From Candidatus Nomurabacteria bacterium (lineage in GTDB: Bacteria > Patescibacteriota > Saccharimonadia > Saccharimonadales > Saccharimonadaceae): DNA of 64,000 bases. Below, piece by piece: positions 1 to 20,644 of this stretch. Location: the NCBI GenBank assembly GCA_020631935.1, contig JACKGP010000003.1:13949-77948 (forward strand). Direction: 5' to 3'. The notes below the pieces were generated by a model. The model had not been told where the DNA came from, made no database searches, and worked only from the letters and a program-made list of their open reading frames with translations. Made by a program: the position numbers and the translations under genes. Every line of letters starts with the position of its first letter. The stretch's first letter is position 1.

Positions 1-78
1 CAAAGTTGTGACATGGTCTTGCCCAACAATCTCGTCCAATGATCGTGACCGATACTTTCGATATAGCGCCTTCCCCAT
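1..78 (-). CDS. dnaX: DNA polymerase III subunit gamma/tau, N-terminal fragment (continues off the window)
   Basis: Reverse translation of 78..1 gives MGKALYRKYRSRSLDEIVGQDHVTTL, the conserved DnaX N-terminus. TATAAT lies 7 nt upstream of the ATG. Confidence 0.6.
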   Translation of the reverse strand, partial: MGKALYRKYRSRSLDEIVGQDHVTTL

Positions 79-120
79 TAGTTATATTATACAGGAACAG
101 GCAGCCTTTTCTTTTTATCG

Positions 121-702
121 CTAGATTTTTCCACCTTCGCGCTGATAGCATTTACCACATAGCGAGTCATACTCAATGTCATTTTCGCCGTCGATGGCAA
201 CCTGGCTGCCGTCAAATACGTAGTCGCCGTTTACTTTGCGGGTATTAAACTCTGCCTGAGAGCTGCAAAAGCACATCGTGGGTAGCTTTTCTATATTGTC
301 GGCAAGCTCCAGAAGCCGCTTACTTCCCGGAAACATTTCAGTGCGAAAGTCGGTACGCAGACCGTATGCGATTACTGATATATCATCTTGTTTTGCCAGA
401 GAAAAAAGTTGACACACCTGGTCTTCATTTAGAAACTGAGCTTCATCTACCAGCACGCATGCCAAGGCACTTTTACCCAATTCATGTACAGATTTGCGAA
501 TATCGGTGTCCTTATCTGCTAGTATATCGACTCTTCTTTCGTGGCCACCGCGCGCAGATATGCGATCATCGCCCTTTGTGTCGATCGCTGGTTTTATTGT
601 AGCTACGTCCAAGCCGCGCTCTTCGTAGTTATATGCAGTTTTTATGAGTGTGTCGCTTTTCCCGCTATTCATCGCCCCATATTTAAAGTGTAGTTTTGCC
701 AT
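121..702 (-). CDS. tdk: thymidine kinase
   Basis: 193 aa with P-loop GAMNSGKS, a VDEAQF motif and C-terminal Cys pairs (MCFC...CGKC) typical of TK. Confidence 0.9.
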   Translation of the reverse strand: MAKLHFKYGAMNSGKSDTLIKTAYNYEERGLDVATIKPAIDTKGDDRISARGGHERRVDILADKDTDIRKSVHELGKSALACVLVDEAQFLNEDQVCQLFSLAKQDDISVIAYGLRTDFRTEMFPGSKRLLELADNIEKLPTMCFCSSQAEFNTRKVNGDYVFDGSQVAIDGENDIEYDSLCGKCYQREGGKI

Positions 703-774
703 ATTAAAATTATAGCAAAGTAAAATCTAGATTCGATTGTATAACTAAAATCTCCGCAATAGTGTGGTGAGTTG

Positions 775-1347
775 CTACAGAGCTGCTTCTACAGCCGCCC
801 AGCTGGCGTCTGGGTTGTCGGTTGGGACTATTATGGTTACCTGATCCCCAACGTTTATTCGGAAGTATGTTACGCTAGCAAGCAGAATTCGGTATTCTTT
901 ACCGTTAGCTTCTACGTAGTAGGCGCCATCGTGTTGCTGTAGTGTGCCAATAATCTGAGTTCTTTCAACTGGGCCGATTTGCTTGTAGATAAAGCTTCCG
1001 TCGTCTGCAATGGTTAACTTTAGTATGTCGCCCTCAACAAGTTTTGACTTAGAAGCGTAGTTGGCGGGTACGGGATATTCTTTTCCGTCTGGTCCGGCCA
1101 TTTTCTGGCCATCGAAAACGCCCTCAACAACCTTTCCAGTTACATTTTCTCTACTATTTGATGGTGTTACGATGGAGTCATCCTCCCCTAGGATGCTCAT
1201 CAATAGTTCTTTTGCAGCTGCCATGTTTGTTTCGGCATCTGAGATAAGCGCACGCAAGCGCTTGACTTGTTTCTCTGGTAAATCAGACATAATTCTCGCA
1301 GTTTCCTTGTCTGTTTTTAATATAGTATTACTACCATTATATATCAA
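775..1347 (-). CDS. hypothetical protein
   Basis: 190-aa ORF with no recognisable motif. An alternative start is M20 (ATG at 1290, MSDLPEKQ). Confidence 0.5.
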   Translation of the reverse strand: MIYNGSNTILKTDKETARIMSDLPEKQVKRLRALISDAETNMAAAKELLMSILGEDDSIVTPSNSRENVTGKVVEGVFDGQKMAGPDGKEYPVPANYASKSKLVEGDILKLTIADDGSFIYKQIGPVERTQIIGTLQQHDGAYYVEANGKEYRILLASVTYFRINVGDQVTIIVPTDNPDASWAAVEAAL

Positions 1348-5483: not shown

Positions 5484-6400
5484 ACTGCAATCGGTGCCTT
5501 TATGGCTGGATATGGATCATAGCCATCTAGCCTAATGTCATCAAATGTGAAGTCGTCTATATTTTTTATTTCTTTGTTTAGAGCCAGCCTCGGCAATGCT
5601 CGCGGTGTACGCGACAGTTGTTCGTCAACCTGATCTAGGTGATTTAAGTAAAGATGGGTGTCAATGGTAGTGTGCACAAATTCGCCAGGGACTTTGTCTG
5701 TTACCTGAGCAACCATGCTTTGCAGTAGCGCATACGATGCAATATTGAATGGCACACCCAGAAATGAGTCGGCACTGCGCTGAGTCAGGTGTAGATCTAG
5801 TCTATTTTCAGTTACGCCAAATTGAAACATGGTGTGGCATGGTGGCAGGCCGCCAGCGGCTGCTATATCGTCAATCTCGGCTACATTCCAGGCGCTAACG
5901 ATATTTCGTCTGCTACCAGGATCATTTTTAATGGTATCAATCGCCTGTGCTATCTGGTCAATGTGGCCGCCATTTCCATCTGGCCACTTACGCCACTGTA
6001 CGCCGTAAACTGGCCCTAGGTCGCCCCACTCTTTGGCAAATGCGTGATCTGTCGCTACCCTGCCTATAAACTCGCCCATCTGATTTCTCCATTCATCAGA
6101 GTTCACTTCTGGAATCGGTAGATTATTCTTTTCTAGGTATGCCTTAAAGGGCCACTCATCCCAGATGTGCACATTGTTTTGAGCTAAATATTCTATGTTT
6201 CCACTCCCTTTTAGAAACCACAGAAGTTCGTGGACTACTGAGTTAAAATATAGTTTCTTGGTTGTTACGGCTGGAAATCCCTCGCTTAAGTCGTAGCGAG
6301 TTTGACGTCCGAAAACACTTTTGGTGCCGACCCCGGTACGGTCTGTCTTTTCGTCGCCATTTTCTTTTATGTCCTGCAGCAGATCTAGATATTGCTTCAT
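5480..6400 (-). CDS. thyA: thymidylate synthase (ThyA type)
   Basis: 306 aa with DRTGVGT, the LPPCH active-site Cys context and [18 protein letters not shown]. Confidence 0.95.
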
Positions 6401-6435
6401 ATATCCCCCTTGATTACATCTTATTATACAAGAAA

Positions 6436-6459
6436 TCCTCTTGCACTGGGCAAGAGGAG
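6436..6459 (-). terminator. intrinsic terminator after rplA
   Basis: Stem TCCTCTTGC / GCAAGAGGA with a 5-nt loop, followed on the minus strand by TTTCTTGT and then the thyA TATAAT box. Confidence 0.6.
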
Positions 6460-6525
6460 ATTGTGTTATGTATTAGAACGATAGCTGAGGGTAGACGTAC
6501 GGCTCCGTCCTAGACTTAGAACAGA

Positions 6526-7497
6526 TTAGGAAACGACGTTTTCAACTTTTATACCAGGACCCATACTGGTAGTAATGGCTGTTGACTTAACATAGACACC
6601 CTTTAAAGAGCTTGGCTTCTGCGCCTGTAGGCTGTCGAAGAAACTCTGGGCGTTTTGCTCTAGCTTGGTTGCGCCGAATGAAACCTTGCCGATAGCCAGG
6701 TGAACTATAGACTGCTTGTCTACGCGGTATTCAACCTTGCCTGCTTTTGCTTCACTTACGGCTTTTGCTACGTCGGTAGCAACTGTACCAGCTTTTGGAT
6801 TTGGCATTAGTCCGCGCGGGCCGAGTAGACGTGCATATTTTCCTAGGCGTGCCATGTATTGAGGTGTTGACACTAGCACGTCAAAGTTTAGGTTTTCTCT
6901 GTCTAGCTGCTTCAAGAAGTCATCATCTCCAACTACGTCAGCGCCGGCTTTTTTAGCTTCAGAGTGGCTATCTTCGGGGGCAAACACAGCAACGCGCAGT
7001 GTGCGACCAGTCCCGTTTGGCAATACTACAGTTGCGCGGATATTCTGATCTGCTTGACGAGGGTCAACTCCTAGGCGAACATGAACTTCAACGCTAGCGT
7101 CAAACTTAGTCGTGCTAGTTTCAACAGCCAACTTCATAGCGTCAGATAGATTGTAAAGCTTGCCAGTTTCGATCTTCTTGGCTACTTCTTGGTATTTTTT
7201 GCCACGACGCTCAATTAGAGGACGAACAATTGGCTTCGGGCCTTTTTTTACGGTTGCCTCACCGCCCTCTTGAGGTGTAGTGTCGCCAGCTTCTTTGCGA
7301 GCCTCTTTTTCGGCCTTGGCCTCTGCTTCGTCTAATGATTTTTGCGAGCGCTTTCCGGCTTTTGCAGTGGTTGCTTCGCGAACTTCGTGCTTCTCGGCGG
7401 TAGCGATTGCAGATTCAATCTCTGCAATAGTGTTTTTCTCTGAAACATCCAGCTTCAGTTCTTTTGCTTTGTCAAGCAAGTCGGCTTTTTTTGCCAT
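6526..7497 (-). CDS. rplA: ribosomal protein uL1 with ~95-aa N-terminal extension
   Basis: 323 aa. The canonical L1 core starts near [13 protein letters not shown]...[10 protein letters not shown]. The N-terminus is an extra Lys/Glu/Ala-rich segment. Confidence 0.9.
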
Positions 7498-15163: not shown

Positions 15164-15380
15164 GGTTATACAAATTATACCAGAGGATAGATCATCGGTG
15201 CATACCAATACTAGTAACACTTCTCAGCATAATGATAGGTACATGTCAAAAGGAGCTAATGGAGTCGAATTCATCGACAGGGGTGATAGAAGTCGTAAAA
15301 CTAGAAAAATCATATCCGAAGATATGATTAACAGAGGCCGGTGGTTCTATCACCCTCAAATTAATACCTTGCAAATTTCG

Positions 15381-15427
15381 TGGCAGGGGCTTCAGGATGA
15401 TTACCGAACCTATTGTGGTGTAATATA
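15381..15427 (-). repeat. degenerate copy of tRNA-Trp 3' end (copy B)
   Basis: TGGCAGGGGCTTCAGGATGATTACCGAACCTATTGTGGTGTAATAT. The blocks TGGCAGGGG, CAGGA and CGAACCTA occur in the same order as in tRNA-Trp. Confidence 0.6.
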
Positions 15428-15625
15428 ATTTTCAAAGAAAAACAGGCCAGTTGTCCGGTACCTTAGGCTGATATCAGTGACATCAGACCAAGTCACTCGC
15501 ATTATTCAAGCGGATTTCCCCTGCTAAGGAGTGCGCTCTCCCTTGTTGATTACCCTACCGCTTCTCGACCTTGATGACGTGAACGCCGAGGCGCTCCATG
15601 TTCGAGAGTGTAGAGGTAAATGCAG

Positions 15626-15964
15626 CTATGCCAGCTCGAACTTGATGCCAATGACACCGTTCTTTTTCTGCTGGTCAAAGGAGTAGTACTCGTTGATTTG
15701 GCTTTCAAGCCATTCGACACTCTCACCGCCAAACTTTACTGTGCTGTTATGTGCGAAAAGATCGTGAAATGTTTCGTAGCGAAGTAGTCCAACGACTTTC
15801 ACGGAAACAGTCTGGTCGGTATTTTCTCGGTTAGTGAATGCAACGGCGTCACCAAGCTGGATAGTTTGGCGTTTCTCATCATAAAGTCTTGATTCGATTG
15901 TTTATGCGCCGGATGTAATAGAGTCAAATGGTACGGTGGCAAGTCGTAAGTGGTGTGTGTTCAT
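15626..15964 (-). pseudogene. ASCH-domain protein pseudogene (in-frame TAA)
   Basis: The translation reads MNTHHLRLATVPFDSITSGA*TIESRLYDEKRQTIQLGD...GVIGIKFELA. The TAA at 15902-15904 occupies the Lys of the GxKTxExR ASCH motif. Confidence 0.65.
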
Positions 15965-16194
15965 GTCTGACTGCTATCTTATCATTAAATGAGAGGCGTT
16001 CTCGTAGTTATGTTAATTTCGCTTCAAGGGTCTGGTCTTTAACAAATCTTTTCTATAAAGACTCTGGCGCACAGACTACCTATCGTTAGAAGATAAATAT
16101 AGCCACTCAAGAATTTCGACACCTTCATTAAAAAAAAGAGTAGTCGAAAAAAGATCCATTCACTATGACGTCAAGGTCGATATCACCCGGTTTG

Positions 16195-16431
16195 TCAGAG
16201 TAAATGTACGAACCGGCGATTGAGATGTGCAGACAGTTCATGCCAAGTGCCATATTTTTTATCAATAAAATCTAAGACAATTTGAAGATTTTCGTTAACG
16301 TGCTGTACACGTTTTAAAATCTCTTCACGTTTCGTCGTATTTGCCTTCTGGTACCAGAAATTATTAATTAAGTATTTTTCGATAAGTTCATTTTTACTGC
16401 TTAAATCAATAAATTCATCGGCAAATGTCAT
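16195..16431 (-). CDS. hypothetical protein
   Basis: 78-aa ORF with no recognisable motif. Confidence 0.35.
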   Translation of the reverse strand: MTFADEFIDLSSKNELIEKYLINNFWYQKANTTKREEILKRVQHVNENLQIVLDFIDKKYGTWHELSAHLNRRFVHLL

Positions 16432-16581
16432 AAGTGGGTAGTTTGCCTCAAACGGTAAGCTGTCTCTGCACGATATATCGGACCAAGCTGCCCTTTACTA
16501 GTCGATGAGGTCGTATATTGTTTTCTTGCTCTGGGCATGCTAGAGTAATAACATATAATTGAAATTATGCAATGAGTTAAT

Positions 16582-17442
16582 GTGCCCAAGCTATTACGTA
16601 TAACAGCATCCGACAAGCTCTATCTCCCAGGGCTTTTATACTGTGCTCACAACGATGCGAAAACACTATTCGTTTATGTACATGGTGCAGGCAGTTCATC
16701 AATCGTACGAAACACCCTTCTTTTTGAATCACTTTCTCAGACTTTCAACACTGCAGGTGCGGACCTACTAACCTTCATGAACCGTGGAGCTGGATACATC
16801 ACAAAGTTCGATACGGCTATGGGTAAATCACAACTTGGCGGTATGGCCTATGAGAAAATTAGCGATTTTATATACGATATTAAAGGAGTCGTAAGCTGGG
16901 CACGTGAACACAGGTATGAGAACGTATATCTACTTGGCCATTCGACCGGTGCTAATAAACTAGCGCTTGTAGCAGACTATATTAATAGACAAGAAGACAT
17001 CAAGGGCGTGGTGCTACTTGCTGGTGGTGATGATATTGCCTTGCAACGATCAGCACTTGACGATGCGCTCGTAGATATCCAAAGGCAAGCAGAAGAAGCG
17101 ATCTCTACATATCGAGATACTGAACTCGCTCCCATCAATACATTGCCCCACCCGATTAGCTGGCGCAGTCTTTACGAACTCATTACTGTTGATAGTGACT
17201 ACGATATTTTTCACTTCTCTAGGCGTGGTGACATGAAGCGTATACAAAAAACAACTAAACCAACCCTTGTAGTTTATGGCTCAGAGGATTTTGGTACTAT
17301 CATTAAACCTGCTATCGCAGTACGAGTGCTGGTTGAACAAAATAAACATATCGTAGGTACGATAATTAACGGTGCAGACCATAATTTTACCGGATACGAG
17401 ACGGAGTTGGCTAAAATTATCCTTGCAGGGGTTAAGGTGTAG
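16582..17442 (+). CDS. alpha/beta hydrolase
   Basis: 286 aa with a GTG start, the nucleophile elbow LLGHSTGAN (GxSxG) and an FVYVHGAGSS oxyanion region. Confidence 0.7.
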   Translation: MPKLLRITASDKLYLPGLLYCAHNDAKTLFVYVHGAGSSSIVRNTLLFESLSQTFNTAGADLLTFMNRGAGYITKFDTAMGKSQLGGMAYEKISDFIYDIKGVVSWAREHRYENVYLLGHSTGANKLALVADYINRQEDIKGVVLLAGGDDIALQRSALDDALVDIQRQAEEAISTYRDTELAPINTLPHPISWRSLYELITVDSDYDIFHFSRRGDMKRIQKTTKPTLVVYGSEDFGTIIKPAIAVRVLVEQNKHIVGTIINGADHNFTGYETELAKIILAGVKV

Positions 17443-17904
17443 TATACATGTCGGAACGAGTACCATTATTTGTGAACGCAGCAATATAAAATCAGGATTA
17501 TAGTCTTGATGAAAAGCCCTATAAAGCTACCGGAATAATAGCAGCGCGCGCCCTGAACTATTTGTCGGGAAATGATCAAAATGTGCACACCTGGAATACA
17601 GTAGGTGCCTTTAACGATAGCGCAGACACTACGGCGGAAGAGCGCCTAGCCGCGAAGTACAGTTCGGATTTTATACGGTGGCCGCATTGATATTCATCGC
17701 CTACGCGCGCATTGTACTTAACCGTGGCCGAGGATATTATCTAGGCGCATGTGTGAATGCATTGCTTGTCGAACACCTCAAGAACGTATAGCTGATACAG
17801 TTGATATATATTCAATTAAGTGTTAATATAGTGCACAAGACAGGCGACCCGCTTCGCCTTTGTGGATGGCCATCCCAAAAACTCTCGAGAGAAACGAGGA
17901 CAAA

Positions 17905-18153
17905 ATGGCCTGGTTGGATGGCAAGGAAGCCAAGGTGGAGCGCTCCGGCGGTACCATCAACGTCTACTACGGAGGATCCTTCTACCCCGATGGCCACGGC
18001 CACGGGCACGTGAAGGCCACCGGCGGCCCGCTCGGCGAGAACATCGTCTACTGGCGCCTGCCGGCGAACGAGGGCGGCCAGGTGATCGTCGACAACTCGT
18101 GGAACACCAAGAACGGCAACGACCTCCGTGACCACATGACCGGCTTCTACTGA
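17905..18153 (+). CDS. hypothetical 82-aa protein encoded in a foreign high-GC segment
   Basis: ATG preceded by GAGGA. Third codon positions are almost all G/C and the gene ends in TGA. The product MAWLDGKEAKVERSGGTINVYYGG...PDGHGHGHVKATGG... contains an HGHGH run. An upstream in-frame ATG at 17860 is possible. Confidence 0.55.
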   Translation: MAWLDGKEAKVERSGGTINVYYGGSFYPDGHGHGHVKATGGPLGENIVYWRLPANEGGQVIVDNSWNTKNGNDLRDHMTGFY

Positions 18154-18212
18154 GCCACCCGACCTGGACATGTCTTGAAACTGTCCGCTTTTAATTTGGT
18201 AAAATAGTAACA

Positions 18213-18605
18213 ATGAACGAAATATCTAAAGCAGTATATGACGCATTCCCTCAGCTTGTCTGCGCTGAGTTTCTTCGAAGCATGTCGCCACTTGTACCCC
18301 TGAAGCCAGATACTGTATTCAATATCTTCCTTACTGAAGATCAACACTTTCTAACTCTCGTTGCAACGGATTATGCCGATCCTAAGGCTCAAAGCAGCGA
18401 GCTAAAGAGTATCTCGGGAGAATACGAATTTGAATTCACTAATCTTCTTTCAACTAGCGGTAGCGACAAAACAATCGAGATTCTTGATCACGATGATATG
18501 AATGGTGACTTTTATATAAGTATGCCGTACAAAAACCACCGACTGTATTACTATGTCGCGAACACGAGCTCCGCTTTTGGTAAGATGCCAAAAGCGTCTG
18601 TGTAG
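18213..18605 (+). CDS. hypothetical protein
   Basis: 130-aa ORF in local low-GC composition. The ATG lies 7 nt after TGgTAAAAT. No recognisable motif. Confidence 0.45.
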   Translation: MNEISKAVYDAFPQLVCAEFLRSMSPLVPLKPDTVFNIFLTEDQHFLTLVATDYADPKAQSSELKSISGEYEFEFTNLLSTSGSDKTIEILDHDDMNGDFYISMPYKNHRLYYYVANTSSAFGKMPKASV

Positions 18606-18621
18606 CTTGTAGTCTTCGTTA

Positions 18622-19050
18622 TTAAAGCCGATCGATAACATCGAGTAACTGATCGGGGTCTTTGGTGAGATCGATCATAAAGAAATTATCTTGAGCTTCG
18701 TGCTTTTCAAGTTCGTCTAATTCCTCCGGCCACAAATCATCATCTACCCACATGAATGGTTGCGAGAAGTCGATACCCTCTGTCTTGAGATCTTTCCAAA
18801 CAGTCGGTTTTACTTTATCTAGTAGTGCAACTGTTTCGGGTTTGAGATGTGGCGCGAGTACCTCTTTGGCACGATTCTCCTCGTTCCAGTTATGGGTTGT
18901 TAGCCAATAGGTTGATTCAGGATACTTCTCTTTAATTACCTCAAGAGTCTTTGTGATGATGATATCCTAGAACCGATGGAGGTAAGCAAGGACGATACTA
19001 CACTTAACGGTTTCGATATTAGCAACAAAGTCTATCGTGTTTAAATGTTC
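18622..19050 (-). pseudogene. HAD-like (HAD_SAK-type) protein remnant with in-frame TAG and no start codon
   Basis: The translation reads ...LAYLHRF*DIIITKTLEVIKEKYPESTYWLTTHNWNEENRAKEVLAPHL...SQPFMWVDDDLWPEEL..., with the TAG at 18967-18969. The open frame begins right after the stop of the upstream S66 peptidase gene. Confidence 0.45.
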
Positions 19051-20142
19051 CTAATTAGAAAATAATGGTGAGGTAATAAAAAGCTTTTTCTTTGCGAGGT
19101 CTATTTCAGTTTCTGCATCATACGGCAGTATACAGTGTGGGTACGAGTGTCCATAGTTTACGTTGTAGAGTACAGGTAGATCGTGGCGATTGGCAACCTC
19201 CTGCCAAATATCTTTGTACTCTTCGTAGTAGACGTTGTCTTGGGGCTTACCAATAATAATACTTCTTAGACTGCCGAAGCTAATGTATTTACCTAGATAA
19301 TCAATCATGTACTGCATCCTGTCTGGAGCCGACAGGGCCTCGCTAGATTCTAAGAATAGTATCTTGTCGTTCCAGTCACGCCATTCAGGAAATATACCGT
19401 ACTTATTTATAATACTCGGCTGCTGCTTGTATCTTTCACCGGCCATCATCTCATACAAGCTTTCGATACAGCCTCCAAGCAACTTACCCTGTACCGACTG
19501 TCTGGCTGTTTGTCCTTGCAGTGTTTCGAAGCCAGTAGCTTCGTTAACCTTATCTCTGCTCGTACCTATCTGATCTTCCGAGTATTTGGTTCTCTTTTTA
19601 TACCAAGTAGGGCTAGACTCTATCTCTAGTCCGCTCTTGTCATTAAAGAACATATCTTGAAAGCAAGCTTTTGTATGAGACAGCATATTATTATCAAGCT
19701 CGCCGAAATCTGATAAGAAATCTACACCATAGAATGTCGGCATACCTATTTTGTAAAACATTAAGTGGTTATTGGTAGTATCAGAAAAACCAAGAAAAAT
19801 CTTCGGTCTTGTTTTGACAGCGTGAATAAACTCCTCGTCTTCCATCAGATAAGGAATTGTCTTGAAGGTGTCGTCACCTCCAGTAGCTACAATGATAGCT
19901 TTAATACTATCATCAAGCATTGCTTGCTTGAGATCGTCTGCTCGAGCTTCTGGGTGAGCGGACAAGTATTTCATACCCCGGAGAGAATTATCCATGTATT
20001 GCACATTCAATCCGAAGACGTCTAGTAGCCTTTTCTCGGCTATTTCTAACTGATGCTTAGCAAACTCTTCACCCAAGACACCAGAAGAAAGGCTAACGAC
20101 GGCAACGGTGTCACCACGAAGAAGTTTGACTGGTTTATTCAT
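19051..20142 (-). CDS. S66 family LD-carboxypeptidase / MccF-like serine peptidase
   Basis: GDTVAVVSLSSG N-terminus and the FLGFSDTTN nucleophile motif. Start set at MNKPVKLL, 7 nt after TACAAT. The ORF track extends it to 20178. Confidence 0.75.
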   Translation of the reverse strand: MNKPVKLLRGDTVAVVSLSSGVLGEEFAKHQLEIAEKRLLDVFGLNVQYMDNSLRGMKYLSAHPEARADDLKQAMLDDSIKAIIVATGGDDTFKTIPYLMEDEEFIHAVKTRPKIFLGFSDTTNNHLMFYKIGMPTFYGVDFLSDFGELDNNMLSHTKACFQDMFFNDKSGLEIESSPTWYKKRTKYSEDQIGTSRDKVNEATGFETLQGQTARQSVQGKLLGGCIESLYEMMAGERYKQQPSIINKYGIFPEWRDWNDKILFLESSEALSAPDRMQYMIDYLGKYISFGSLRSIIIGKPQDNVYYEEYKDIWQEVANRHDLPVLYNVNYGHSYPHCILPYDAETEIDLAKKKLFITSPLFSN

Positions 20143-20283
20143 AGCATCTATTGTAAGCAAGTAATTGCTTAGCTGCAACTGCAGTTACTAGAATCGGCAC
20201 CCTCCAACTGCCTGCCGTACTGTGCGGTGCGGCATGTATATTTCGTCTGAAATGGGTTCGAATGTAGCAGCATAGCTTCTTTT

Positions 20284-20323
20284 AACATAAATGATACACC
20301 TTTGACGGTGTATCATTTATGTT
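20284..20323. other. perfect 17-bp inverted repeat (hairpin)
   Basis: AACATAAATGATACACC, loop tttgac, GGTGTATCATTTATGTT. Confidence 0.8.
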
Positions 20324-20465
20324 GGTCGGGGTACTAGGAAATCGGCAGCAAGCTGTCTCCTCCGCTCACTCGCAAAAGAAAATACCTGATCAGGGGCATT
20401 AGGAGTACTAAGGTATGTCTGCGTCGCGCTCAGAAAAGTAAACTTTTCTGCCCTGCTCCTTGCTA

Positions 20466-20511
20466 TCGAACCTAGATCTTGCGCCAGCAAGCTGTCGCGA
20501 TCTAGGTTCGA
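20466..20511. other. long near-perfect hairpin (~21 bp)
   Basis: TCGAACCTAGATC...GATCTAGGTTCGA is a 13-bp perfect stem. It extends inward through GCG and CAGC/GCTG pairs to an AA loop. Confidence 0.75.
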
Positions 20512-20535
20512 CTCCGAGCAACTCCGAAGATATAG

Positions 20536-20565
20536 AAAAACGGTAACCAGATGGTTACCGTTTTT
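20536..20565 (-). terminator. intrinsic terminator after tRNA-Trp (bidirectional hairpin)
   Basis: AAAAACGGTAACC, loop agat, GGTTACCGTTTTT, 3 nt downstream of the tRNA 3' end. Confidence 0.8.
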
Positions 20566-20568
20566 CTA

Positions 20569-20644
20569 TGGCAGGGGTAGCAGGACTCGAACCTACGACA
20601 CCTGGTTTTGGAGACCAGTGCTCTACCAACTGAGCTATACCCCT
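20569..20644 (-). tRNA. trnW: tRNA-Trp (anticodon CCA), CCA end encoded
   Basis: The reverse complement AGGGGTATAGCTCAGTTGGTAGAGCACTGGTCTCCAAAACCAGGTGTCGTAGGTTCGAGTCCTGCTACCCCTGCCA folds as a 76-nt cloverleaf with anticodon loop CUCCAAA. Confidence 0.9.

What the first reader, a model, noticed from the sequence alone, without database searches (positions are those of the whole stretch)
17836..18165. Abrupt ~330 bp high-GC segment encoding an 82-aa HGHGH protein, possibly acquired from a high-GC (actinobacterial) donor
The composition switches sharply from the AT-rich background (...TTCAATTAAGTGTTAATATAGTG) to clearly GC-rich sequence, roughly 60-65 percent by eye, and back (...TGTCTTGAAACTGTCCGCTTTTAATTT). 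In the frame starting at ATG 17905, preceded by GAGGA, almost every third codon position is G or C. This differs from every other gene in the window. The region also throws up long overlapping ORFs in three frames on both strands, which is typical of high-GC DNA. The product is MAWLDGKEAKVERSGGTINVYYGGSFYPDGHGHGHVKATGGPLGENIVYWRLPANEGGQVIVDNSWNTKNGNDLRDHMTGFY. It has a His-Gly repeat suggesting metal binding, and I cannot assign it to a family. If the genome is a Saccharibacteria-type episymbiont, its known hosts are high-GC Actinomycetota, so host-to-symbiont transfer is the attractive explanation. The unameliorated composition implies a recent event. The adjacent low-GC 130-aa ORF (18213-18605) could be a functional partner, but that is speculation.
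Basis: partly seen in the sequence, partly recalled or inferred. Interest (0 to 1): 0.7.

Follow-up and report, generated by a model that had tools for sequence, protein, structure and literature searches.

The report
GC-rich gene in mobile two-gene cassette
The GC-rich patch is real: it is the first gene of a small mobile two-gene cassette, probably a toxin and its antidote, that moves between Saccharibacteria and has reached a Streptomyces mobile element, and wherever the first gene is intact and little decayed that gene uses "high-GC" codons while its partner uses "low-GC" codons.

Summary
Window 17836-18165 is 62% GC against a 45% background (z = 4.9), and the 82-aa ORF has GC3 0.90 against 0.38-0.51 for all other ORFs.

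The ORF, g1, is a real gene of a conserved family with no Pfam match. It is always followed by the 130-aa ORF, g2. The pair is a mobile cassette. I found it in 39 GTDB species loci (38 labelled Saccharibacteria or Nanosynbacter), in at least seven gene neighbourhoods. One copy sits beside type IV secretion genes and one sits in a Streptomyces integrative conjugative element.

The window copy lies in a 1.27-kb decayed fragment of the secretion-linked locus. Independent assemblies and samples reproduce both junctions, so it is not a chimera.

The GC-rich g1 / AT-rich g2 split recurs in seven lineages, including Streptomyces, where g2 is the odd gene out. The spike therefore arrived with the cassette from another low-GC element. 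It was not cut directly from an actinobacterial host.

g1's codon usage is actinobacterial-like, so an ultimate high-GC origin is plausible. Selection that maintains the GC content is not excluded.

g1 decays while g2 stays intact. There are also orphan g2 copies, tandem arrays and toxin-like domain fusions. Together these point to a toxin/effector plus immunity pair. Its biochemistry is unknown.

The parts
17672..17785 (+). 3' remnant (last 38 codons) of a 163-aa membrane-protein gene that precedes the cassette in L053/L054
   Evidence: tblastn gives 79% aa identity to residues 125-162 of L054:178-669. Upstream of it the frame is full of stops. DNA homology to L053 begins at about 17700.
17801..17829 (+). 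Sigma-70-like promoter of g1 (TTGATA, 17-nt spacer, TAATAT, with a TG extension). The predicted transcription start at about 17836 coincides with the left edge of the GC-rich block.
   Evidence: Consensus scan. The same promoter is conserved in L053 (TTGACA-17-TAATAT) and in L019, L067, L068, L069 and L063. The start site is inferred and has not been mapped.
17836..17904 (+). GC-rich structured 5' UTR of g1 with three small hairpins. The last hairpin overlaps the Shine-Dalgarno GAGGA at 17896-17900.
   Evidence: RNAalifold on 7 lineages predicts 14 pairs, 4 of them with compensatory changes. There is no Rfam match at E <= 1. The evidence is weak to moderate.
17905..18153 (+). g1: 82-aa protein with a near-invariant GHGHV...GENIVYWRLP core. 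GC 0.64, GC3 0.90. Candidate toxin/effector.
   Evidence: 79 homologous clusters at 62-96% identity. dN/dS is about 0.2-0.3. H33, G34, H35, W50, R51, L52, P53 and N64 are invariant or nearly so. No Pfam, NCBIfam, PHROG, PADLOC or PDB match.
18161..18186 (+). Conserved intergenic motif GACCTGGACATGTCTTGAAACTGTCC. It forms a hairpin (GGACA/UGUCC) followed by a T-run, so it is a likely g1 terminator or operator, and it overlaps the -35 region of the g2 promoter.
   Evidence: The motif is present in all lineages, including Streptomyces, even though g2 is saturated at synonymous sites. Arm variants are wobble-compatible or compensatory: GGATA/TGTCC, GGATA/TATCC, GGGCA/TGTCC.
18197..18205 (+). Extended -10 box (TGGTAAAAT) of a separate g2 promoter. 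The ATG lies 7 nt downstream, so the g2 mRNA is probably leaderless.
   Evidence: Read directly from the sequence. A -10 box in the equivalent position is conserved in all lineages and in the orphan g2 locus L055. This is an inference.
18213..18605 (+). g2: 130-aa partner protein, AT-rich (GC 0.42, GC3 0.43). Candidate immunity protein or antidote.
   Evidence: It follows g1 in every locus. It is 55% identical to the Streptomyces partner and 47% to the Nanosynbacter partner. The family has 224 clusters. The AlphaFold2 model has pLDDT 82 and no PDB or BFVD fold match.
18625..18945 (-). N-terminally truncated remnant of the 138-aa HAD-like gene that follows the cassette in L053. It is a pseudogene.
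   Evidence: 86% aa identity to residues 32-138 of L053:1290-1706(-). An in-frame stop is present and the DxDGV N-terminus is lost.

Best explanation
The GC-rich block is the transcription unit of g1: promoter-proximal 5' UTR, the 82-aa coding sequence and a 3' hairpin. g1 is the first gene of a mobile two-gene cassette whose second gene, g2 (18213-18605), is AT-rich and has its own promoter.

Shown: the cassette occurs mostly in Saccharibacteria, in at least seven gene neighbourhoods. One copy lies next to a VirD4/VirB4-type type IV secretion cluster. One copy lies inside a Streptomyces integrative conjugative element. In the window it sits in a 1.27-kb decayed fragment (17672-18945) of the secretion-linked locus type, and the canonical chromosomal site for the cassette is empty. 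The g1-GC-rich / g2-AT-rich split belongs to the cassette itself. It is seen in seven lineages, in hosts from 42% to over 62% GC.

Inferred: this genome imported the spike ready-made from another low-GC element, probably by recombination of a tract of about 450 bp. g1 most likely acquired its actinobacterial-like codon usage in a high-GC genome before the mosaic cassette formed. It then ameliorates after chromosomal fixation, with GC3 falling from 0.90 to 0.45. Functionally the pair most likely works as a toxin or effector (g1) with a cognate immunity protein or antidote (g2). g1 translation would be held back by the structured leader, and g2 would be made constitutively from its own promoter.
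For: Composition.

Family and taxonomy.

Cassette linkage in all loci.

Distinct neighbourhoods: DUF2797-dnaX; Streptomyces element with serine recombinase, DUF3846, coupling protein, Replic_Relax, HTH_17 and tyrosine integrase; secretion cluster; and others.

Window copy as an L053-like remnant. Canonical site empty, with thymidine kinase instead.

Universal split (g1 GC3 / g2 GC3): window 0.90/0.43, L053 0.87/0.46, Streptomyces 0.83/0.455, L019 0.82/0.32, L067 0.84/0.35; L068 and L069 show the same spike as a 200-bp GC profile.

Codon dialect: g1 CAI is 0.85 against Streptomyces-element usage and 0.69 against window usage, which is below all 52 ORFs used as the reference set. g2 is the reverse, 0.45 and 0.78.

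Recombination tract: 92-98% identity over 17901-18250 against 76-88% beyond. In Nanosynbacter the cassette is less diverged than its flanks.

Amelioration series and decay: GC3 falls to 0.44-0.68 in chromosomal copies.

Toxin/immunity logic: g1 is frameshifted or stopped in 7 species loci while g2 is intact in all of them. L055 has an orphan g2. L037 and L040 carry tandem cassettes in which the second g1 is broken and both g2 are intact. The intact pair is retained between truncated neighbours. g1-like domains occur at the C-terminus of 340-435-aa coiled-coil proteins.
Against: No homology, fold match or experiment shows toxicity or neutralisation. The g1 AlphaFold2 model is poor (pLDDT 54), and g2 has many invariant polar residues, which is unusual for a simple immunity protein.

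No high-GC donor carrying a fully GC-rich cassette was found. An actinobacterial origin for g1 therefore rests only on codon usage and on remote homologues in Saccharothrix and Streptomyces.

g1 and g2 identities are broadly congruent (Spearman 0.51). Yet the synonymous divergence of g1 is well below that of g2: dS 0.12 against 0.98 for window versus L053, and codon mismatch 0.27-0.29 against 0.51-0.67 among the deep lineages. That fits selection on g1 synonymous sites as well as it fits recombination.
Confidence: 0.55

Rival explanations
1. The GC-richness of g1 is not a historical residue. Selection on synonymous sites actively maintains it while the cassette is functional and mobile. Possible reasons are a long-lived, highly structured toxin mRNA paired with a short-lived AT-rich leaderless antidote mRNA (hok-like post-segregational logic), or tuning of expression to the host.
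For: The split persists in at least three deeply diverged lineages whose g2 genes are saturated at synonymous sites (pS 0.72-0.96) while g1 pS is 0.36-0.41. In AT-biased genomes a neutral GC-rich gene should diverge faster at synonymous sites, not slower. The GC-rich block matches the inferred g1 transcript, including its untranslated ends. The leader hairpins overlap the Shine-Dalgarno sequence. GC3 decays together with relaxed dN/dS and pseudogenisation in chromosomal copies. The g1 and g2 trees are roughly congruent.
Against: Synonymous-codon permutation gives no consistent extra mRNA structure: z runs from -2.6 to +1.0 across 10 alleles. In the Nanosynbacter chromosomal copies g1 pS is not lower than that of flanking genes. 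Synonymous differences among the high-GC alleles are mostly S<->W, as expected for independent neutral decay from a GC3 ~1 ancestor. The window/L053 identity profile has a breakpoint inside g2, which is typical of a recombination tract. A remote homologue shows no GC3 rise over its g1-like domains.
Confidence: 0.25
2. One reading: this Saccharibacterium recently took the ~330-bp segment directly from its high-GC actinobacterial host, and the segment has not yet ameliorated.
For: g1 has actinobacterial-like codon usage. One Streptomyces strain carries a 77%-identical homologue on a conjugative element. Remote homologues occur in Saccharothrix and Streptomyces. Saccharibacteria are naturally competent epibionts of Actinomycetota (PMC10633639, abstract seen).
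Against: The nearest relatives of the window segment (96% nt) lie in low-GC contigs with the same AT-rich flanks. Homology to that locus runs 1.27 kb beyond the GC block, into AT-rich genes. The Streptomyces cassette has an AT-rich g2 with 3 TTA codons, and its closest DNA relative is a 42.5% GC locus, L067 (72.8% over 687 nt). That points to transfer from Saccharibacteria to Streptomyces. There were no hits in PLSDB plasmids or INPHARED phages. The metagenome 20-mer scan found only low-GC contexts.
Confidence: 0.07
3. The pair is not a toxin/immunity module. It is another kind of cargo of conjugative or secretion loci, for example an anti-defence or establishment factor, or a metal-binding protein (g1) with a partner enzyme or chaperone (g2). 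On this view g1 is simply dispensable once the cassette is chromosomal.
For: There is no similarity to any known toxin, antitoxin, immunity or defence family. The GHGH motif is conserved. g2 has many invariant Asp, Ser, Lys and Glu residues that suggest an active site. In both L053 and Streptomyces the cassette sits next to a coupling-protein gene, and those two proteins are 26% identical, E = 2e-32.
Against: The asymmetric decay (g1 broken, g2 always intact), the orphan g2, the tandem arrays, and C-terminal g1-like domains on long helical proteins are the classic signatures of toxin/immunity loci. The intact pair also survives in an otherwise degraded fragment.
Confidence: 0.3
4. The feature is an artefact or is mis-read. 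Either it is an assembly chimera, or the real feature is a non-coding RNA or the 133-aa antisense ORF.
For: A gene caller annotated the antisense ORF rather than g1 in L056. The segment folds somewhat better than dinucleotide shuffles on the + strand (z = -2.2).
Against: An independent assembly is identical over 5.4 kb, and other samples show the same junctions. g1 shows three-base periodicity, dN/dS well below 1 and protein-level conservation out to remote homologues. The antisense frame is broken in L067, L014, L017, L021 and others that keep g1 intact. There is no Rfam hit.
Confidence: 0.02

Closest known systems
Polymorphic toxin / immunity modules (CdiA-CT/CdiI, Rhs-CT/RhsI, LXG/T7SS toxins with orphan arrays)
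   Same: A small variable toxin domain is followed at once by a cognate protective gene. Orphan and tandem copies occur (L055, L037, L040). The toxin gene decays while the immunity gene persists. The modules move horizontally and stand out in composition from their surroundings. The same domain occurs at the C-terminus of long helical carrier proteins (P0114, P0124, P0125).
   Different: Here g1 is a stand-alone 82-aa protein with no recognisable delivery domain. Neither protein matches a known toxin or immunity family or fold. The toxin and immunity genes differ sharply from each other in composition, whereas known CT/immunity modules share one composition. Toxicity is untested.
Plasmid/ICE addiction modules (type II toxin-antitoxin; hok/sok-type post-segregational killing)
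   Same: It is a two-gene module on conjugative or integrative elements. It survives intact in a decayed element remnant. The leader structure overlaps the ribosome-binding site of the putative toxin. A conserved palindromic or hairpin motif lies at the promoter of the partner gene.
   Different: The gene order and the two separate promoters are atypical for type II systems. There is no antisense RNA as in hok/sok. There is no homology to any TA family in Pfam, NCBIfam or PADLOC.
Compositionally atypical genomic islets from horizontal transfer followed by amelioration (Lawrence-Ochman model); Actinomycetota-Saccharibacteria gene exchange
   Same: There is a sharp GC/GC3 anomaly. The segment is linked to mobile-element genes. 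A graded series of GC3 values (0.90 down to 0.45) tracks residence in the chromosome. Copies occur in both phyla.
   Different: The anomaly covers only one of two co-transferred genes. It recurs in many lineages and appears in mirror image in Streptomyces, where g2 is the anomaly. The best-supported cross-phylum event runs from Saccharibacteria to Streptomyces, not from host to symbiont.
Patescibacterial MPF-FATA-type type IV secretion clusters (PMC12102498)
   Same: L053 carries the cassette directly beside VirD4-like, CHAP, VirB4-like, TraC-like, PrgI-like and TrbL-like genes. These are the monoderm-type set described for Patescibacteria.
   Different: The paper reports these clusters as chromosomal and mostly without a relaxase, so L053 may not be a true conjugative element. 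No link between that machinery and g1/g2 has been described, and the window itself has no such genes.

Membership tests
Recent host-derived (Actinomycetota) horizontally transferred islet | Composition and codon usage atypical for the recipient and typical for the donor | tested here: met
   GC3 is 0.90 against 0.38-0.51. CAI is 0.85 against Streptomyces-element usage and 0.69 against window usage.
Recent host-derived (Actinomycetota) horizontally transferred islet | Closest homologues lie in the donor clade, and recipient copies nest within donor diversity | tested here: not met
   38 of 39 GTDB species loci are Saccharibacteria, and there is one Streptomyces strain among 79 clusters. The closest relatives of the window allele are in 47-49% GC contigs. 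The Streptomyces copy groups with the low-GC loci L067, L019 and L063.
Recent host-derived (Actinomycetota) horizontally transferred islet | The whole transferred tract shares the donor composition | tested here: not met
   The transferred fragment spans 17672-18945, but only 17836-18165 is GC-rich. The co-transferred g2 and the flanking remnants are AT-rich.
Toxin/effector-immunity (polymorphic toxin-like) cassette | Toxin gene immediately followed by a cognate immunity gene, with strictly conserved linkage | tested here: met
   g2 follows g1 in all loci from three collections.
Toxin/effector-immunity (polymorphic toxin-like) cassette | Orphan immunity genes, tandem arrays, and loss of the toxin while immunity is retained | tested here: met
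   g1 is disrupted in 7 loci with g2 intact. L055 has an orphan g2. L037 and L040 have tandem cassettes. There are 224 g2 clusters against 79 g1 clusters.
Toxin/effector-immunity (polymorphic toxin-like) cassette | The toxin domain also occurs fused to the C-terminus of large delivery proteins | tested here: inconclusive
   g1-like domains lie at the C-terminus of 340-435-aa coiled-coil proteins with a weak WXG100_2/DUF1771 match (hhalign probability 95.5%). Their secretion route is unknown, and the gene downstream is not detectably g2-like.
Toxin/effector-immunity (polymorphic toxin-like) cassette | g1 is toxic and g2 specifically neutralises it by binding | not testable with these tools
   This needs expression, rescue and pull-down experiments, or at least a complex prediction, which is not available here.
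Type II toxin-antitoxin system | Homology to a known toxin or antitoxin superfamily | tested here: not met
   No Pfam, NCBIfam, PADLOC or PHROG hit for g1 or g2. No PDB sequence or fold match.
Type II toxin-antitoxin system | Single autoregulated bicistronic operon | tested here: inconclusive
   A terminator-like hairpin and a separate extended -10 promoter lie between the two genes. This rests on sequence inference only, with no transcript data.
Structured non-coding RNA / riboswitch | Match to an Rfam covariance model, or significant conserved structure with covariation | tested here: not met
   No Rfam match at gathering score or at E <= 1. Coding-sequence structure z-scores are inconsistent. 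Only the short 5' UTR hairpins (4 of 14 pairs) and the intergenic hairpin show compensatory changes.

The most novel reading that the evidence does not exclude
The two 'codon dialects' are functional. g1 is written to be translated efficiently in high-GC Actinomycetota, the hosts of Saccharibacteria. g2 is written for the low-GC epibiont and is poorly expressed in the host: it is AT-rich and, in Streptomyces, carries TTA codons, which are rare and bldA-dependent there. On this reading the cassette is an inter-phylum weapon or addiction module that rides on type IV secretion or conjugative DNA transfer. It would be harmless in the donor and active in the recipient host cell, and selection would keep the GC split wherever the cassette is still in use.
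Probability: 0.1. Interest if true: 0.85.

Novelty: new variant of a known kind. Interest (0 to 1): 0.55.

Why it matters
If the function is right, this is an uncharacterised toxin/immunity-like gene pair that is widespread in human-associated and environmental Saccharibacteria. It is linked to their type IV secretion genes and shared with a Streptomyces conjugative element. That gives concrete evidence of DNA flow between episymbionts and the phylum they parasitise, and it offers candidate effectors for an interaction whose molecular basis is largely unknown.

The stable juxtaposition of a GC3 ~0.9 gene and a GC3 ~0.4 partner across hosts from 42% to over 62% GC is also a clean natural test case. 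It could show whether compositional anomalies always mean recent transfer, or whether they can be maintained by selection or by repeated allele replacement.

There is a practical point too. Gene callers mis-annotate the locus by calling the antisense ORF, so the family is under-represented in protein databases.

Tried and rejected
- Homology searches of g1 and g2 found nothing: Pfam, NCBIfam, PHROGs, PADLOC, and PDB by sequence profile.
- AlphaFold2 on g1 gave pLDDT 54, which is unusable. g2 gave pLDDT 82, but Foldseek against PDB and BFVD returned nothing with E < 0.09.
- The exhaustive profile search produced multi-stretch hits to fibronectin type III repeat proteins. I regard these as beta-strand motif noise.
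- The antisense 133-aa ORF is rejected, because the frame is broken in several alleles that keep g1 intact.
- A non-coding RNA is rejected: there is no Rfam hit, and the coding signature is clear.
- A specific mRNA fold in the coding sequence is not supported by synonymous-codon permutation (the first attempt timed out).
- An intrinsic, domain-linked GC bias is rejected, because the remote homologue P0124 shows no GC3 rise over its g1-like domains.
- Highly-expressed-gene codon bias is rejected: every other long ORF in the window, including those matching ribosomal proteins L1, L10 and L12, has GC3 of 0.51 or less.
- tblastn of g1 against PLSDB plasmids and INPHARED phages gave no match.
- The gene downstream of the P0124 fusion protein is not significantly g2-like.
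- The Esx effector AesB that Actinomycetota use against Saccharibacteria (PMC13622651) is unrelated to g1.
- Chimera: excluded by L056, L053 and L054.
Full report
OBSERVATION. The segment is as described. Window 17836-18165 has GC 0.621. All other 330-bp windows have mean 0.452, sd 0.035 and maximum 0.542, so z = 4.9. The eight GC-richest 250-bp windows of the 64 kb all lie here. The ORF 17905-18153 has GC1/2/3 of 0.58/0.43/0.90. All 54 ORFs of at least 150 aa have GC3 0.38-0.51, and the neighbouring 130-aa ORF has 0.43. The edges are abrupt at 40-bp resolution. The overlapping ORFs on both strands are present.

An independent Logan assembly of run SRR12358676 (L056) is identical to window 15213-20618. 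Contigs from two other runs (L053, L054) show the same junctions. A chimera is therefore very unlikely.

WHAT THE ORF IS. The 82-aa product, g1, has 79 homologous clusters at 62-96% identity and none has a Pfam domain. The core Y22-G-G, H33-G-H35-V, G-E-N-I-V-Y-W-R-L-P and N64 is invariant or nearly so. dN/dS is about 0.2-0.3, so it is a real protein-coding gene.

A scan of one genome per GTDB species found 39 loci. Of these, 38 are labelled Candidatus Saccharibacteria or Nanosynbacter and one is an unnamed MAG. The window is itself Saccharibacterial. Its L1, L10 and L12 proteins are 75%, 70% and 82% identical to those of a Nanosynbacter-type locus, although NCBI labels the source MAG 'Candidatus Nomurabacteria bacterium'.

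The only named hit outside this group among those 79 clusters is Streptomyces sp. NBC_01235, at 77% identity. An exhaustive profile search adds remote relatives. These include hypothetical proteins of Saccharothrix and Streptomyces sp. SM11. They also include 340-435-aa proteins with a long N-terminal coiled coil (weak DUF1771/WXG100_2 match) and two C-terminal g1-like domains.

A TWO-GENE CASSETTE. In every locus g1 is followed within 45-220 bp by a homologue of the window's 130-aa ORF, g2. The window g2 is 55% identical to the Streptomyces partner and 47% to a Nanosynbacter partner. The g2 family has 224 clusters, again without a Pfam domain.

The pair sits in at least seven different neighbourhoods:
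- between DUF2797 and dnaX in many Nanosynbacter-like genomes;
- beside methyltransferase and glycolysis genes;
- beside murB, beside an ABC transporter and bacA, and beside a RimK-like gene;
- next to VirD4-like, CHAP, VirB4-like, TraC-like, PrgI-like and TrbL-like type IV secretion genes in L053;
- in Streptomyces, inside an integrated element with serine recombinase, DUF3846, a coupling-protein ATPase, Replic_Relax, HTH_17 and a tyrosine integrase.

The coupling proteins next to the cassette in L053 and in Streptomyces are homologous: 26% identity over 440 aa, E = 2e-32.

WHERE THE WINDOW COPY CAME FROM. Alignment with L053 shows homology from about 17700 to about 18950. This stretch holds the last 38 codons of the 163-aa membrane-protein gene that precedes the cassette in L053 (17672-17785), then intact g1, then intact g2. 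It ends with an N-terminally truncated copy, carrying an in-frame stop, of the 138-aa HAD-like gene on the opposite strand (18945-18625).

The window thus carries a 1.27-kb decayed fragment of an L053-like locus, lodged between an alpha/beta hydrolase gene and an LD-carboxypeptidase gene. The canonical site is present in the window (the 171-aa gene at 778-1290 and the dnaX start at 78-1). It holds a thymidine kinase gene and no cassette, and the window has only one g1/g2 copy.

THE COMPOSITIONAL SPLIT BELONGS TO THE CASSETTE. GC3 of g1 and g2, with background GC in brackets:
- window: 0.90 / 0.43 (0.45)
- L053: 0.87 / 0.46 (0.485)
- L019 and L060: 0.82 / 0.32 (0.50)
- L067: 0.84 / 0.35 (0.425)
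- Streptomyces: 0.83 / 0.455 (0.62-0.64)

L068 and L069, recovered by scanning metagenomes for a 20-mer shared by the high-GC alleles, show the same local spike (0.63-0.65) in 48-49% GC contigs. That scan returned no high-GC context.

In Streptomyces the whole interval 5600-7000 is AT-rich except g1. Its g2 has three TTA codons in 128, against one in 2727 codons of the element's other genes. Nucleotide homology to Saccharibacterial loci starts exactly at the g1 ATG and is best to L067, at 72.8% over 687 nt.

In codon-adaptation terms, window g1 scores 0.85 against Streptomyces-element usage. That is above every window ORF (maximum 0.49) and above the element's own mean (0.73). Against window usage it scores 0.69, below all 52 ORFs used as the reference set. 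g2 scores 0.45 and 0.78 respectively.

The GC spike was therefore imported with the cassette from another low-GC element. For the one actinobacterial copy, the AT-rich g2 and its position among low-GC relatives point to transfer from Saccharibacteria to Streptomyces.

HISTORY OR SELECTION? Chromosomal copies form a graded series. g1 GC3 is 0.56-0.68 at the canonical Nanosynbacter site and 0.44-0.56 in another group. g2 stays at 0.30-0.43. This fits amelioration after fixation.

Between the window and L053, identity is 92-98% over 17901-18250. That stretch covers g1, the intergenic region and the first ~40 nt of g2. Identity is 76-88% further into g2 and beyond. dS is 0.12 for g1 against 0.98 for g2. 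The breakpoint inside g2 looks like a recombination tract.

In Nanosynbacter the cassette is much less diverged than its flanks in the deepest comparison: pS is 0.16-0.49 against 0.62-0.75. g1 pS is otherwise not lower than the flanks. This again indicates allele exchange rather than a general synonymous constraint.

Synonymous differences among the high-GC alleles are mostly S<->W. That is compatible with independent decay from an ancestor with GC3 near 1, a value typical of Actinomycetota (established knowledge).

Some evidence points the other way. Three deep lineages keep GC3 of at least 0.82 while their g2 partners are saturated. Codon mismatch at identical residues is 0.27-0.29, against about 0.52-0.55 expected at saturation. 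The g1 and g2 identities are roughly congruent (Spearman 0.51). These points fit purifying selection on g1 synonymous sites.

Tests for a specific mRNA fold were inconclusive (z from -2.6 to +1.0), and a remote homologue shows no domain-linked GC3 rise. My conclusion is that an ultimate high-GC origin followed by spread through recombination is the more likely explanation. Selection that maintains the GC content remains a live rival, at about 0.25.

REGULATORY ANATOMY (inferred from sequence).
- A sigma-70-like promoter (TTGATA, 17 nt, TAATAT, TG-extended; 17801-17829) is conserved in the related lineages. It places the transcription start at about 17836, the left edge of the GC block.
- The 69-nt leader forms three small hairpins. 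The last overlaps the Shine-Dalgarno sequence, and 4 of 14 pairs show compensatory changes in seven lineages.
- After the stop codon lies the motif GACCTGGACATGTCTTGAAACTGTCC (18161-18186). It is conserved in all lineages including Streptomyces. Its arm variants are wobble-compatible or compensatory (GGATA/TGTCC, GGATA/TATCC, GGGCA/TGTCC), and a T-run follows. It is a likely g1 terminator or operator, and it overlaps the -35 region of a separate g2 promoter. That promoter has an extended -10 box, TGGTAAAAT, at 18197-18205.
- The g2 ATG lies 7 nt downstream of the -10 box, so the g2 mRNA is probably leaderless.

The GC-rich block therefore equals the g1 transcription unit.

FUNCTION. No family, fold or defence-system library recognises either protein. 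The genetic behaviour is nevertheless characteristic:
- g1 is frameshifted or stopped in seven species loci, and N-terminally shortened in others, while g2 is intact in all;
- L055 has a g2 without g1, and the junction falls inside the intergenic motif;
- L037 and L040 carry tandem cassettes in which the second g1 is broken and both g2 copies are intact;
- in the window the pair is intact between two truncated genes;
- g1-like domains occupy the C-terminal position of long helical proteins.

These are the signatures of toxin/effector-immunity or addiction modules. I commit to that as the most likely mechanism, at about 0.4-0.45 on its own. g1 would be the harmful protein, kept in check by a structured leader. 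g2 would be the constitutively made antidote. The near-invariant GHGH motif may bind a metal or act in catalysis, but this is untested.

COMPARISON AND NOVELTY. The closest known kinds are polymorphic toxin/immunity modules and mobile-element addiction modules. The cassette matches them in genetic behaviour. It fails every homology-based membership test, and it differs in that the two genes have opposite compositions.

As an instance of horizontal transfer it is a known kind. However, the defining features of a direct transfer from Actinomycetota were tested and not met: nearest relatives in the donor clade, and donor-like composition across the whole tract.

Two things are unusual. The first is a compositional mosaic that persists across hosts of 42% to over 62% GC. 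The second is evidence for exchange between Saccharibacteria and a Streptomyces conjugative element. Patescibacterial type IV secretion clusters are described as chromosomal and mostly without a relaxase (PMC12102498), so L053 may be such a cluster rather than a true conjugative element.

VERDICT. The feature is a new variant of a known kind, with moderate interest (0.55).

Noticed in passing
window 1-1347: The site where most Nanosynbacter-type genomes carry the cassette (171-aa gene, DUF2797, g1, g2, dnaX) is present in the window. It holds a thymidine kinase gene (121-702, minus strand) and has no DUF2797 and no cassette.
   Followed up: partly
whole window; g2 = P0080: NCBI labels the source MAG 'Candidatus Nomurabacteria bacterium' (locus tag H6796_01610). 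The ribosomal proteins and synteny are Saccharibacterial, at 70-82% identity to Nanosynbacter-type loci.
   Followed up: partly
L056:2600-2959 (= window about 17812-18171, minus strand): The gene caller annotated the antisense ORF of the GC-rich block instead of g1. The exact window g1 sequence is absent from the protein collection, so high-GC alleles of this family are probably under-annotated.
   Followed up: partly
window 18161-18186 and equivalent positions in all loci: A 26-nt intergenic motif, GACCTGGACATGTCnnnAAACTGTCC, is conserved from Saccharibacteria to Streptomyces and shows compensatory or wobble arm changes. It could be a terminator hairpin or an operator. The recombination junction of the orphan g2 locus L055 falls inside it.
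   Followed up: partly
window 17836-17904: The g1 leader has three hairpins, and the middle one (AUGGAU...AUCCAU) covaries across lineages as GGAG/CUCC and GGGU/ACCC. There is no Rfam match. It may be an undescribed cis-regulatory leader.
   Followed up: partly
L037:5153-6767 and L040:5416-7032: Two cassettes lie in tandem. The second g1 is split by frameshifts, and both g2 copies are intact.
   Followed up: partly
L055:7790-8393: A g2 homologue, 75% identical to the window's, is preceded by a 58-aa DUF6496 gene instead of g1.
   Followed up: no
L057:6001-7308 (P0124) and relatives P0114, P0125: These are 340-435-aa proteins with a long coiled-coil N-terminus (weak DUF1771/WXG100_2 match) and two C-terminal g1-like domains. 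They lie in a housekeeping neighbourhood of a 49% GC genome. The layout resembles a polymorphic toxin.
   Followed up: partly
L002:6316-6699: The Streptomyces g2 has three TTA codons within six codons (..GAT TTA TTA GCC TTA GTG..), in a genus where TTA is rare and bldA-dependent. The rest of the element has 1 TTA in 2727 codons.
   Followed up: partly
L004:2779-3105 and L005, L006, L009, L010: A WhiB-family gene, a regulator typical of Actinomycetota, sits between the rplA and rplJ genes in these Saccharibacterial loci.
   Followed up: no
window 17443-17671: This ~230-bp stretch between the hydrolase gene and the element remnant has slightly raised GC (0.48-0.50), has no intact ORF, and has no homology to L053. 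Its origin is unknown.
   Followed up: no
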